Shown here: positions 15,001 to 18,000 of the stretch, one piece after another
How positions within the stretch are numbered: position 1 is the stretch's first letter
How the letters are laid out: each line of letters begins with the position of its first letter
Assembly (NCBI RefSeq): GCF_045037415.1
Contig: NZ_CP173440.1
Reading direction: 5' to 3' (one strand)
Origin: Escherichia coli
Lineage (GTDB): Bacteria > Pseudomonadota > Gammaproteobacteria > Enterobacterales > Enterobacteriaceae
DNA length: 64,000 nt
Program-made: the position numbers

Positions 15001-18000
15001 ATGACCTGAAAAGATATTTAACTATCAGGGCCTGAAAGCCCTCCCTGTAACCCAAAGGAAAAATTATGAACATGAACTGGAATGAATAAAGAAAAAACCT
15101 AAAAATGTCGGCTCACTCGTGACTGAGATCCCTGAACCCCTGAAGGTCTATCAGACTATCGCTGAATTTGCCAATCGTCAGGGCGTGCTGGACCAGAAAA
15201 CACAGGAGCTGATTTCCCTGGCGGTCGCCGTAACGACCCGGTGCGACGGCTGCATCAGTATTCACTCACAGGCGGCCCTGAAAGCCGGTGCATCCAGAGA
15301 AGAAATCGCCGCTGCGCTGGCCGTGGCTGTTTCCCTGAACGCGGGCGCCGCAGTAGTTTATTCATCACATGTGATGGAAGCCATAAATCAGTAAAGCATA
15401 TATAATGAAGTATATAACGATGGCAGGTAAGCTGTTATCAACTCATGGAGGAAAAAATGAAGACCAGACTTAAAGTTATCCTGCTAATTTCACACCTGGC
15501 TGTTCTGGGAGCGGGTACCGGCCTGGGGATTTATCTGCTGCCGATACTGACTGCCCAGGAAAATGCTTCGCTGAACGAAATCAACGATGTGCGGAAGCTG
15601 GCAAAATATAAGGGTGATTTTAAACGTAATCAGAAAGGCAGCGATGTTCTTCACTGGGCAGAGGGCGAGCTTTACGTTACCGATAACGAAATCGCCTTCA
15701 AAGGTGAAGTAGCGCCCGGGCCGGATTACAAAATCTATCTGACGAAAAAACAGGCGGTAGATAAGAGTTCTTTTCTGGAAATGAAAAAAGAGGCCGTGCT
15801 GATTGGAGAACTCAAAAACTTTGGTAATTTCAGAAAGAGTATTCCTGACAGTGTTAACGTCAATGAATTCACCACCGTTCAGATATGGTGTGAACGGTTC
15901 TCCAAATTTATTGGCTCTGCTGAATACCGGCATGAGGCCGGACAATAATCATCTGTGGTTCTGTTTTATGAGTAATCACTACAAGGAAACTTAAATATGT
16001 TAAAGAAAACCGTTATAACCAGCGCTGTTGTGTCTGCCCTGTTACTCTCATCCTCCGGTATTGCGGCCGCCGTCGCCGGCGATAAATCCGGCGCGCAAAC
16101 GCCAGCAGCCAGCCGGCTCGTCATGTCGTCAGATTCTTACGGCGAAATTATTGGGCAATTCAACAGCCCTGACGGGGCGGTCGTGGGGGCCACTTTGCCT
16201 GGCAAAAGTGTTTCATTCAGCATTCCGGTGAAGAAACATCACGGACAGTATCTGCATTTTGCCTTCATGCATGCCGCCTCTGCGTCAGAAGGCTGGTTCT
16301 TTGCCCCGGCGTCAGAACAGGGGATTAATCTCACAGGTCTGATGACTGAGGACGGGAAACCGGTAGACATAACGGAACAGATTGCTCTTTTCCGGGCTCC
16401 TGCTGCAGACCAGCTTGTGAAAGTTACAGCAGATAGTGGAAAACTCAGGCTCGGGGCTGCAGCGAAGTTTATGACGGCAAAACTGACCCGTCATAATGGT
16501 ATGTTTGTCATCAGCATTAAAAATATTTCTGAAGGAGACTACGAAACACCATTTTCCTCCGGTGTGTGGGGCGTGACAGGAACCGCAGTCCGAAGTTTCG
16601 ACCATGAACCTTCTTCAGCCTTATCAAAACTGGCCACCACAGGGCACAGAGGCGAATTGTATAAACTTGCTCAGAAAAAAATACCAGAACAAAATAACGC
16701 ACTTTCAATGGAGCTGACCAGAGGTGCCATTAAAATGGCCGAAGAACAGATGGCAGGTCATAAAAAAATAGGTAGCATCAGCGGAACTGCGCCAACTCAG
16801 GGAGAACTGGAGAAGAAATTTGCCATGGCTGCGGCGCAAATGGGGGCCAGATATTACGTTATCACCGGCCTCAGTAATAACAACTATGCCTTTGGTAACG
16901 CTGATATCTACGAATAACTAAAACGCTTTATTATGCAGTGAACGTTATCCCCCATCCTTGAGGGGCAAGGGGATAACGTTCAGGATTATCGCCACCGGGA
17001 ATAACAGATGAACACCGATTTTTCTTACAGAGATTTATTTCGTGACTTAAGTTCGCTAATGGCGGGAGAAACCAGCTTTGTTACCATGATGGCTAACACC
17101 AGCTCGCTGCTGTATAACCGTATGGAGAATATAATTTTATGTGCTGGAGAAGGATATCCTTGTTCTTGGACCATTCCAGGGGGAACATTGCCTGCGCCCG
17201 AATTCCGGTAGGCTCCGGCGTTTGCGGGACGGCAGTTGCAGAGGAACGGATCCTGTGCATAAATAATGTCCATAGTTTTAATGGTCATATTGTCTGTGAT
17301 ACAGCCAGTAACTCGGAAATCGTTTTACCTGTCCGGATTAATAATACCGTCGTTGGTGCTCTGGACATAGACAGCCCCGCATTTTCCCGTTTTTCATCAG
17401 AGGACGAACTGTGATTAAATAAACTGGCAGTACAATTCGGTAAAATGGCTGAATTAACCGATTATCTTAAAATTGTCTCTTTTTTAGATGGCTATACTCT
17501 TTTATCGAAAATTTATGATTCACACCATCTAATAAAAATATTGTGTTTGAGTCTGGTAGGTATGCATGTATATCACTGTTTGATATTAGACAAAGATAAT
17601 ATTGGATGTCCGGAAAATACATTTCATTCCTGCAAAGAAGTAAGTGTTTTCGGTAACGATATACAATCTCATAGTGTTCTTACCTTTAATGCATCCTTAT
17701 ATATCAACTAAAACTGTCATTAATTATATATGATTATTATATTATTTATTGAGTGTGAGACGTTTTATGGTGATTATTTTTTTTTGCGCCTCCTTCTTCT
17801 TGATAGGAATATGTTTCTCAACCTCCTTCTTTGAGCTATGTAAGAATAAAAATTATAAATTGACAAATAAAATAGAAAAAGAATTATAAATATAATGGAT
17901 GGATAGTTCACCTCCTCCTCCCTTTTTATCTAGGTATTTGATGTGCACCATTTTTCATCAGTTATTTCTTTATTTAAGTTGTAAAGATACATAAATCTTA

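What the first reader, a model, noticed from the sequence alone, without database searches (positions are those of the whole stretch)
17008..17414. Frameshifted GAF-domain MsrC/YebR-like gene next to rmpA2
Both halves of a YebR-like protein are present in different frames, and the C-terminus appears truncated. This is another decayed gene in the AT-rich rmpA2 neighbourhood.
Basis: partly seen in the sequence, partly recalled or inferred. Interest (0 to 1): 0.2.

Follow-up and report, generated by a model that had tools for sequence, protein, structure and literature searches.

The report
Decayed msrC-like pseudogene beside rmpA2
This is the dead remnant of a plasmid-borne free-methionine-sulfoxide reductase (YebR/MsrC-type GAF) gene on the Klebsiella virulence plasmid pLVPK, broken by four separate lesions; it is real but ordinary, and annotation pipelines already flag it.

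Summary
The window is pLVPK (NC_005249.1), 100% identical over the region. Positions 17008-17480 (+) are a real pseudogene of a YebR/MsrC-type GAF-domain free methionine-R-sulfoxide reductase.

Alignment to intact 173-181-aa orthologues in the same gene context shows four lesions:
- An 11-bp deletion between 17134 and 17135 removes the conserved substrate-pocket Trp.
- One extra G in the run at 17179-17183 (G5 instead of G4).
- A GGA>TGA nonsense change at 17412-17414.
- The last 20 codons are lost at a junction after 17480.

The coding remnant therefore uses three frames, not two. The C-terminus is cut first by a stop codon and then by a real truncation.

Immediately beyond the junction, on the minus strand, lies a 5' fragment of rmpC2, then rmpD2 and rmpA2. 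Two truncated genes abut tail to tail.

The 11-bp deletion is shared with the KpVP-2-type plasmid Kp52.145 pII. The other three lesions were seen only in the pLVPK lineage. About 590 of 609 plasmid assemblies carry the same sequence, so it is not a sequencing error.

PGAP already annotates it as a frameshifted, internally stopped, C-terminally incomplete GAF pseudogene. Interest is low.

The parts
17008..17134 (+). Pseudogene segment A: codons 1-42 (MNTDFSYRDLFRDLSSLMAGETSFVTMMANTSSLLYNRMENI), first frame
   Evidence: ORF list. Matches YebR residues 1-42. Aligns to the intact orthologues L003, L005 and L006.
17134..17135 (+). Site of the 11-bp deletion (ACTGGRCCGGT in intact copies). It removes the N-W-A/T-G codons, including the conserved Trp, and shifts the frame.
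   Evidence: Pairwise and multiple DNA alignments. The deletion is shared with Kp52.145 plasmid II (L006) and absent from Serratia pET_W2 (L005) and L003.
17135..17182 (+). Pseudogene segment B: FYVLEKDILVLGPFQG, second frame
   Evidence: Frame translation and tblastn piece 'FYVLEKDILVLGPFQGE'; alignment.
17179..17183 (+). G5 run carrying one extra G (G4 in all three intact or less decayed copies); second frameshift
   Evidence: P0133 from CP050276.1 reads through with GPFQGNIAC, implying a G4 allele in at least one record.
17184..17411 (+). Pseudogene segment C: NIAC...SSEDEL, third frame. Holds all three fRMsr cysteines (codons 17193-17195, 17223-17225, 17295-17297), the HIVCD motif (17286-17300), and the SEIV and DIDS motifs.
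   Evidence: ORF 17139..17414. Pfam GAF 30.9 bits and GAF_2 29.3 bits on this ORF alone. Alignment to 1VHM via the intact orthologue.
17412..17414 (+). Premature stop TGA; GGA (Gly) in L003, L005 and L006
   Evidence: codon 139 GGA>TGA.
17415..17480 (+). Pseudogene segment D: LNKLAVQFGKMAELTDYLKIVS, same frame as C, downstream of the stop
   Evidence: Homology to all intact copies ends at 17480.
17480..17481 (.). Tail-to-tail junction. The GAF gene loses its last 20 codons (PVSKDRVNKLYLHTSPSVCG*) and rmpC2 loses about two-thirds of its 3' end.
   Evidence: end of homology. (homology to the rmpADC locus L007 begins at window 17480). (module homology to L005 and L006 ends at 17480).
17481..17672 (-). 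rmpC2 remnant: the N-terminal third of an rmpC paralogue, itself frameshifted
   Evidence: 76% DNA identity to rmpC of L007. ORFs 17586..17672 and 17467..17622 (-) resemble the RmpC N-terminus. The literature describes the prmpA2 locus as rmpA2, rmpD2 and a truncated rmpC (PMC10269444).
17774..17911 (-). rmpD2 (45-aa small-protein ORF)
   Evidence: Lies in the position of rmpD in the 78.5%-identical alignment to L007. Weak NCBIfam hit to a small membrane protein family, 22.8 bits, below the cut-off of 33. PMC10269444.
17932..18567 (-). rmpA2, frameshifted; the open ORF is only 18187..18567 (126 aa)
   Evidence: AMRFinder call in pLVPK. PGAP 'rmpA2; frameshifted'. ORF list.
15997..16917 (+). 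Intact upstream neighbour: 306-aa DUF1471 (YdgH/BhsA/McbA-like) protein gene, syntenic with the GAF gene in every related locus
13431..17480 (+). 4-kb module shared with Serratia plasmid pET_W2 at 96.9% identity: small DUF1471, TetR, DUF417, carboxymuconolactone-decarboxylase family, DM13, DUF1471, GAF. The pseudogene is its last gene.
   Evidence: blastn of L005 against the window; annotations.
16939..16982 (+). Conserved 14-bp-stem hairpin between the DUF1471 gene and the GAF start codon; no T-run follows
   Evidence: Fold -27.4 kcal/mol, z=-2.6. Conserved in L003, L005 and L006. Not called as a terminator.

Best explanation
Positions 17008-17480 are a non-functional relic of a plasmid-borne fRMsr/MsrC (YebR-type GAF-domain free methionine-R-sulfoxide reductase) gene. 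It was the last gene of a seven-gene module (small DUF1471, TetR, DUF417, CMD-family, DM13, DUF1471, GAF) that sits just downstream of iutA on Klebsiella virulence plasmids. The same module is intact on a Serratia plasmid.

The gene was probably inactivated first by an 11-bp deletion. That deletion removed the substrate-pocket Trp and shifted the frame. It is shared with the KpVP-2-type plasmid Kp52.145 pII, so it is older than the other lesions.

In the pLVPK/KpVP-1 lineage the dead gene then gained three more lesions: a +1 G in a G-run, a GGA>TGA nonsense change, and loss of its last 20 codons. The last lesion arose in a rearrangement that joined it tail to tail to a truncated rmpC2 of the rmpA2-rmpD2-rmpC2 locus.

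Shown: the homology, the four lesions, their distribution among the copies compared, and the junction. Inferred: the order of events, the loss of enzymatic function, and that decay was tolerated because enterobacteria carry a chromosomal yebR/msrC.
For: - Identity of the window with pLVPK.
- Homology to YebR: tblastn E=1e-40 in three frames; intact orthologue against 1VHM at E=5e-61, and against named or characterised fRMsr structures 3MMH and 1F5M; Pfam GAF and GAF_2 above cut-off.
- Intact syntenic orthologues: P0001 (173 aa, L003) and the 181-aa Serratia and Arsenophonus proteins.
- Base-level lesions.
- The 11-bp deletion is shared by Kp52.145 pII, which has none of the other three lesions and keeps the native 3' end and the downstream recombinase gene.
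- The junction with rmpC2 is at 17480|17481, in agreement with PMC10269444.
- Population uniformity: 591 of 609 records >=99% identical across the two indel sites. Seventeen are in the 95-99% band; the one sampled (CP032834.1) has the deletion without the extra G, like the KpVP-2-type copies. Only the Serratia record lacks the deletion.
- PGAP pseudogene annotation. Prokka-style split 'msrC_1/msrC_2' in MF943217.1.
- Only 2 synonymous and 4 non-synonymous codon differences separate the window copy from the KpVP-2 copy, so the decay is recent.
Against: - No reads, transcripts or protein data were available.
- The 91-aa ORF 17139..17414 keeps all three cysteines and the HIVCD, SEIV and DIDS motifs, and some pipelines call it a protein (P0110). 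Residual expression of a fragment cannot be formally excluded.
- The order of lesions rests on four sequences and on parsimony. Recombination between plasmid lineages could blur it.
- Substitution counts are too small for a dN/dS test.
- Redundancy with a chromosomal msrC in K. pneumoniae was not tested here.
Confidence: 0.93

Rival explanations
1. The frameshifts are sequencing or assembly errors, and the real gene is intact.
For: One lesion lies in a homopolymer (G5, 17179-17183). Noisy assemblies do show other indels here: P0002 from GCA_003861405.1, where neighbouring genes are also fragmented. One record implies G4 (P0133).
Against: About 590 independent plasmid assemblies from many laboratories and platforms have the same sequence. 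An 11-bp deletion, a G>T substitution and a junction with unrelated DNA are not typical sequencing errors. Repairing the G-run alone does not restore the ORF. No Klebsiella plasmid in PLSDB has an intact copy.
Confidence: 0.01
2. The locus is still functional: either ribosomal frameshifting or read-through yields a full protein, or the 91-aa ORF (17139-17414) makes a truncated but active or regulatory GAF fragment.
For: The 91-aa ORF contains the three Cys and the catalytic HIVCD motif, and passes the Pfam GAF cut-offs alone. The KpVP-2 form retains a 133-aa ORF that is seen on many contigs.
Against: - A full product would need two +1 shifts plus stop read-through, and would still lack 4 residues (including the strictly conserved Trp) and the last 20 residues.
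- The 91-aa ORF lacks the two N-terminal helices, the first strand and the Trp/Tyr substrate-pocket residues (conservation per bioRxiv 10.1101/2021.02.26.433065).
- Its nearest GGAG is 11 nt upstream of the ATG, a long spacer (read from the sequence).
- No promoter-like site was found in 16700-17700.
- Further lesions accumulated after the first in the pLVPK lineage, as expected for neutral decay.
Confidence: 0.03
3. The G-run is a phase-variation switch for the gene, like the poly-G tracts of rmpA and rmpA2.
For: A G-run next to the rmpA2 locus, with one record showing G4 instead of G5.
Against: G5 is short for slipped-strand switching. The sampled plasmids are uniform at this site (38 of 38 rows 100% identical). 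Neither G4 nor G5 gives an intact ORF, because of the 11-bp deletion, the nonsense codon and the truncation.
Confidence: 0.01

Closest known systems
E. coli YebR / MsrC (fRMsr; PDB 1VHM)
   Same: Same GAF-type fold family. About 53-57% amino-acid identity over the alignable segments. The intact plasmid orthologue matches 1VHM at E=5e-61 over residues 3-164. The three cysteines have the same spacing, and the H[I/V]xCD motif is present.
   Different: It is a plasmid-borne paralogue, only about 55-60% identical to chromosomal enterobacterial YebR proteins. Intact forms carry a different, longer C-terminal tail (181 aa). The pLVPK copy is a pseudogene.
Intact orthologue on Serratia marcescens plasmid pET_W2 (AP028600.1, BEO88489.1 / WP_342185820.1, 181 aa) and relatives in Serratia ureilytica and Arsenophonus nasoniae
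   Same: The shared 4-kb module is 96.9% identical in DNA. It has the same seven-gene order and the same upstream hairpin.
   Different: The Serratia gene is uninterrupted and is followed by an invertase/recombinase gene. There is no iutA upstream and no rmpA2 locus downstream.
KpVP-2-type copy (Kp52.145 plasmid II, NZ_FO834905.1)
   Same: Same position downstream of iucD-iutA. 98.9% identical from window 9961 to 17480. Same 11-bp deletion.
   Different: It has no extra G, no nonsense codon, a native 3' end and the downstream recombinase gene. Gene callers report a 133-aa ORF there (P0121).
PGAP pseudogene LAJ48_RS23365 in NZ_CP083611.1, and Prokka 'msrC_1/msrC_2' in MF943217.1
   Same: The same sequence, already annotated as a frameshifted, internally stopped and incomplete GAF-domain gene, or as a split msrC.
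   Different: Those annotations do not resolve the individual lesions, their order, or the junction with rmpC2.

Membership tests
fRMsr / MsrC (GAF-type free methionine-R-sulfoxide reductase) | GAF-domain fold, with sequence homology to characterised fRMsr proteins | tested here: met
   Pfam GAF (34.1 bits, cut-off 22.4) and GAF_2 (30.8 bits, cut-off 28.6) on the reconstructed protein. The intact orthologue matches 1VHM at 5e-61, 3KSF at 8e-39, 3MMH at 1.5e-27 and 1F5M at 6.6e-25.
fRMsr / MsrC (GAF-type free methionine-R-sulfoxide reductase) | Catalytic Cys in an H[I/V]xCD motif (yeast Cys125) | tested here: met
   HIVCD is encoded at 17286-17300. The motif definition is from bioRxiv 10.1101/2021.02.26.433065.
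fRMsr / MsrC (GAF-type free methionine-R-sulfoxide reductase) | Two resolving Cys, 34 and 24 residues upstream of the catalytic Cys (yeast Cys91 and Cys101) | tested here: met
   Cys codons at 17193-17195 and 17223-17225 lie 34 and 24 codons before 17295-17297.
fRMsr / MsrC (GAF-type free methionine-R-sulfoxide reductase) | Strictly conserved substrate-pocket Trp and Tyr (yeast Trp66 and Tyr70; the WxGFY motif) | tested here: not met
   The 11-bp deletion at 17134|17135 removes the N-W-A/T-G codons. Only FY remains, and in another frame. Intact orthologues have NW[AT]GFY.
fRMsr / MsrC (GAF-type free methionine-R-sulfoxide reductase) | Conserved Glu132 and Asp149/Asp151 (SEIV and DxD motifs) | tested here: met
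   SNSEIV and LDIDS are present in ORF 17139..17414. They were mapped by motif, not by a direct alignment to the yeast protein.
fRMsr / MsrC (GAF-type free methionine-R-sulfoxide reductase) | A single uninterrupted reading frame of about 165-181 codons | tested here: not met
   Two frameshifts, one nonsense codon and a 20-codon 3' truncation.
fRMsr / MsrC (GAF-type free methionine-R-sulfoxide reductase) | Reduction of free Met-R-sulfoxide | not testable with these tools
   This needs an enzyme assay or complementation. No member of this plasmid-borne clade has been assayed, as far as the searches showed.
Pseudogene (relic of a vertically traceable gene) | An intact orthologue in the same gene context, against which disabling lesions can be defined | tested here: met
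   L005 (Serratia pET_W2) and L003 carry the intact gene after the same 306-aa DUF1471 gene.
Pseudogene (relic of a vertically traceable gene) | The lesions are real, not artefacts | tested here: met
   Same sequence in about 590 independent plasmid assemblies. Raw reads were not examined.

The most novel reading that the evidence does not exclude
The pseudogene marks the end of a mobile, uncharacterised oxidant-defence module that travels between Serratia, Arsenophonus and Klebsiella plasmids and sits next to the aerobactin locus. The module comprises TetR, DUF417 (RclC-like), an AhpD-like CMD protein, DM13, DUF1471 and fRMsr. On this reading, its fRMsr gene was specifically dispensable in Klebsiella and was lost, while the other six genes stay intact and may still contribute to survival of host oxidative or chlorine stress in hypervirulent strains.
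Probability: 0.2. Interest if true: 0.3.

Novelty: already known. Interest (0 to 1): 0.08.

Why it matters
It matters little on its own. It is one more decayed gene on a heavily studied virulence plasmid, and pipelines already flag it.

It has modest practical value in three ways:
- The lesions are lineage markers. The 11-bp deletion is shared by KpVP-1 and KpVP-2, while the extra G, the nonsense codon and the 17480 junction were seen only in KpVP-1.
- The 17480|17481 junction pins down exactly where the rmpA2-rmpD2-rmpC2' locus was joined to the iuc-linked module. This helps reconstruct how rmpA2 arrived on KpVP-1 plasmids.
- Annotators should not report the 91-aa or 133-aa ORFs (or 'msrC_1/msrC_2') as functional methionine sulfoxide reductases.

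Tried and rejected
- NCBIfam scan of the intact orthologue and of the local small ORFs found no family for the GAF protein. The only hit of note was a sub-threshold small-membrane-protein hit for the rmpD2 ORF.
- The promoter/terminator scan of 16700-17700 found nothing, so no statement about transcription is possible.
- Literature searches for 'pLVPK' + 'GAF domain' and for 'rmpA2' + 'rmpC2' found nothing. 'rmpD2' led to PMC10269444, which describes the truncated rmpC but not the GAF pseudogene.
- P0002 (135 aa, 86% identity) looked like a less decayed allele. It comes from an assembly in which iutA and other genes are also fragmented, so it was dismissed as a noisy assembly.
- I tried to use the PGAP-annotated fusion plasmid NZ_CP083611.1 to annotate window ~37.1 kb. 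That record is not collinear with the window there, so pLVPK itself was used instead.
- dN/dS was attempted, but only 6-7 differing codons separate the copies, too few for a test.
- Structure prediction was judged unnecessary, because sequence homology to solved fRMsr structures is unambiguous.

Full report
**Identity of the window.** The 611 bases around the finding (16950-17560) are 100% identical to K. pneumoniae CG43 plasmid pLVPK (NC_005249.1, reverse strand) and to hundreds of other Klebsiella virulence plasmids. In all, 611 PLSDB records match, 593 of them at >=99%. In pLVPK the region lies between the aerobactin receptor gene iutA and rmpA2.

**Checking the observation.** A tblastn of E. 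coli YebR against 16900-17700 gives E=1e-40, with matching pieces in all three forward frames. The pieces are:
- Residues 1-42 in the first frame.
- FYVLEKDILVLGPFQG in the second frame.
- IACARIPVG...EDEL, and after a stop codon LNKLAVQFGKMAELTDYLKIVS, in the third frame.

The concatenated protein passes Pfam's GAF and GAF_2 gathering scores, and so does the 91-aa ORF alone.

**Finding an intact reference.** A protein search with the stitched sequence found chromosomal enterobacterial YebR-type proteins at only 50-60% identity. It also found one cluster at about 91% identity (P0001, 173 aa). That cluster contains two kinds of member:
- Intact 181-aa proteins from Serratia ureilytica, Serratia marcescens and Arsenophonus nasoniae.
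- 133-aa, 98-aa, 91-aa and 85-aa fragments called on Klebsiella plasmids.

P0001 lies on a short Logan contig directly after the same 306-aa DUF1471 gene that precedes the pseudogene in the window. The Serratia marcescens plasmid pET_W2 (AP028600.1) carries the whole neighbourhood intact: small DUF1471, TetR, DUF417 membrane protein, CMD-family protein, DM13 protein, 306-aa DUF1471 protein and the 181-aa GAF protein, followed by an invertase gene on the other strand. This 4-kb module is 96.9% identical to window 13431-17480. The KpVP-2-type plasmid Kp52.145 pII has the same module after iucD-iutA, 98.9% identical to window 9961-17480. It too is followed by the recombinase gene.

**The lesions, at base level.**
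1. Eleven bases (ACTGGRCCGGT) are missing between 17134 and 17135. This deletes the N-W-A/T-G codons and shifts the frame. Kp52.145 pII has the same deletion; Serratia and L003 do not.
2. The run at 17179-17183 is G5 where the other three sequences have G4. This is a second shift, seen only in the pLVPK lineage.
3. Codon 17412-17414 is TGA where the others have GGA, again only in the pLVPK lineage.
4. Homology to all three references stops after 17480. The last 20 codons (PVSKDRVNKLYLHTSPSVCG*) and the recombinase gene are absent.

**Rate of decay.** Apart from these lesions, the window copy differs from the KpVP-2 copy at only six codons. The decay is therefore recent, and the counts are too small for a dN/dS test.

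**What lies beyond the junction.** Window 17481-18574 aligns at 76-78% identity with the rmpC(5' part)-rmpD-rmpA locus of another plasmid, starting exactly at the junction. On the minus strand the order is:
- rmpA2 (17932-18567), which PGAP marks as frameshifted.
- rmpD2 (17774-17911).
- Only the first third of an rmpC paralogue (17481-17672), which is itself frameshifted.

This matches the published description of the prmpA2 locus as rmpA2, rmpD2 and a truncated rmpC with 78% identity to prmpA (PMC10269444). Two truncated genes thus abut tail to tail at 17480|17481, which is the signature of a deletion or illegitimate-recombination scar.

GC content supports this. It is 0.43-0.47 across the GAF remnant, like the module to its left, and falls to about 0.24-0.35 to the right of it. 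The pseudogene therefore lies at the edge of the AT-rich rmpA2 block, not inside it.

A 237-bp internal fragment of the recombinase gene that follows the GAF gene in KpVP-2 and Serratia survives at window 37097-37333, in the same orientation, next to an IS903-like element. This suggests that about 19.6 kb now separates sequences that were once adjacent.

**Artefact or real?** Reads are not available, but population evidence is strong. Across the 111 bases that span both indel sites (17105-17215), 591 of 609 plasmid records are >=99% identical, and all 38 sampled rows of that band were 100.0%. Seventeen records fall in the 95-99% band; the one sampled (CP032834.1) has the deletion but not the extra G, as the KpVP-2-type copies do. 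Only the Serratia plasmid lacks the deletion. No Klebsiella plasmid in the collection has an intact copy. One record (CP050276.1, P0133) seems to have G4 together with the nonsense codon. One noisy assembly shows other indels.

**Function.** The intact orthologue is a clear homologue of solved fRMsr structures: E. coli YebR 1VHM at 5e-61, S. aureus 3KSF, N. meningitidis 3MMH and yeast 1F5M. The family's published hallmarks are a catalytic Cys in an H[I/V]xCD motif, two resolving Cys 34 and 24 residues upstream, and strictly conserved Trp66, Tyr70, Glu132, Asp149 and Asp151 (bioRxiv 10.1101/2021.02.26.433065).

The window retains HIVCD (17286-17300), both resolving Cys with exactly that spacing, and the SEIV and DIDS motifs. 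The 11-bp deletion removed the Trp. With two frameshifts, a stop codon and a missing tail, the locus fails the membership test as a functional fRMsr. It is a relic of one.

The most likely history is inferred by parsimony from the four sequences. The 11-bp deletion came first, in an ancestor shared by KpVP-1 and KpVP-2. Neutral accumulation of the extra G, the nonsense codon and the rmpC2 junction followed in KpVP-1. Redundancy with the chromosomal yebR/msrC of enterobacteria is a plausible reason for tolerance, but I did not test it.

**Status in the databases.** PGAP annotates the identical sequence in NZ_CP083611.1 as 'GAF domain-containing protein; frameshifted; internal stop; incomplete; missing C-terminus'. 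Another record carries 'msrC_1/msrC_2'. The finding is therefore correct but already known and biologically ordinary. What this analysis adds is the exact list and likely order of the lesions, the intact reference, and the tail-to-tail junction with rmpC2.

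Noticed in passing
window 17481-17672 (-): A remnant of an rmpC paralogue (rmpC2), holding only the N-terminal third. 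It is itself split over two frames (ORFs 17586..17672 and 17467..17622) and is cut off exactly where the GAF pseudogene ends. The literature describes a truncated rmpC here, but the searches found no mention of this junction partner.
   Followed up: yes
window 37097-37333 (+): A 237-bp internal fragment (94-98% identical) of the recombinase/invertase gene that directly follows the GAF gene in Kp52.145 pII and Serratia pET_W2. It lies about 19.6 kb away in the same orientation and is flanked on the right by an IS903-like transposase gene (37413..38282, -). This suggests that the whole 17481-37096 stretch was inserted or rearranged between once-adjacent sequences.
   Followed up: partly
window 13431-17480 (+): A seven-gene module (small DUF1471, TetR, DUF417, CMD/AhpD-like, DM13, 306-aa DUF1471, GAF/fRMsr) is shared at 96.9% identity with a Serratia marcescens IncI1 plasmid that has no aerobactin genes. 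It looks like a mobile stress-related cassette of unknown function. Six of its seven genes remain intact in pLVPK.
   Followed up: partly
window 16939-16982 (+): A perfect 14-bp-stem inverted repeat (GAACGTTATCCCC...GGGGATAACGTTC; -27.4 kcal/mol, z=-2.6) lies between the DUF1471 gene's stop and the GAF start. It is conserved in the Serratia, KpVP-2 and Logan copies and has no T-run. It could be a terminator variant, an RNA-stability element or a protein-binding site.
   Followed up: partly
window 17932-18567 (-): rmpA2 is itself frameshifted in this plasmid: the open ORF is only 126 aa (18187..18567), and PGAP marks it 'frameshifted'. This fits the known poly-G instability of rmpA2.
   Followed up: no
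window 18984-19700 (+): An IS3-family transposase orfA fragment is followed by a restriction-endonuclease gene fragment. PGAP marks both as incomplete pseudogenes, between the rmpA2 locus and vapBC (19710-20380, -). These are further scars of rearrangement on the right side of the AT-rich block.
   Followed up: no
L003 1548-1606 (Logan SRR32498798 contig): The last ~40-60 bases of this intact-gene contig diverge from the Serratia and KpVP-2 3' end, giving a 173-aa rather than a 181-aa product. This could be a different downstream junction or a contig-end artefact.
   Followed up: no
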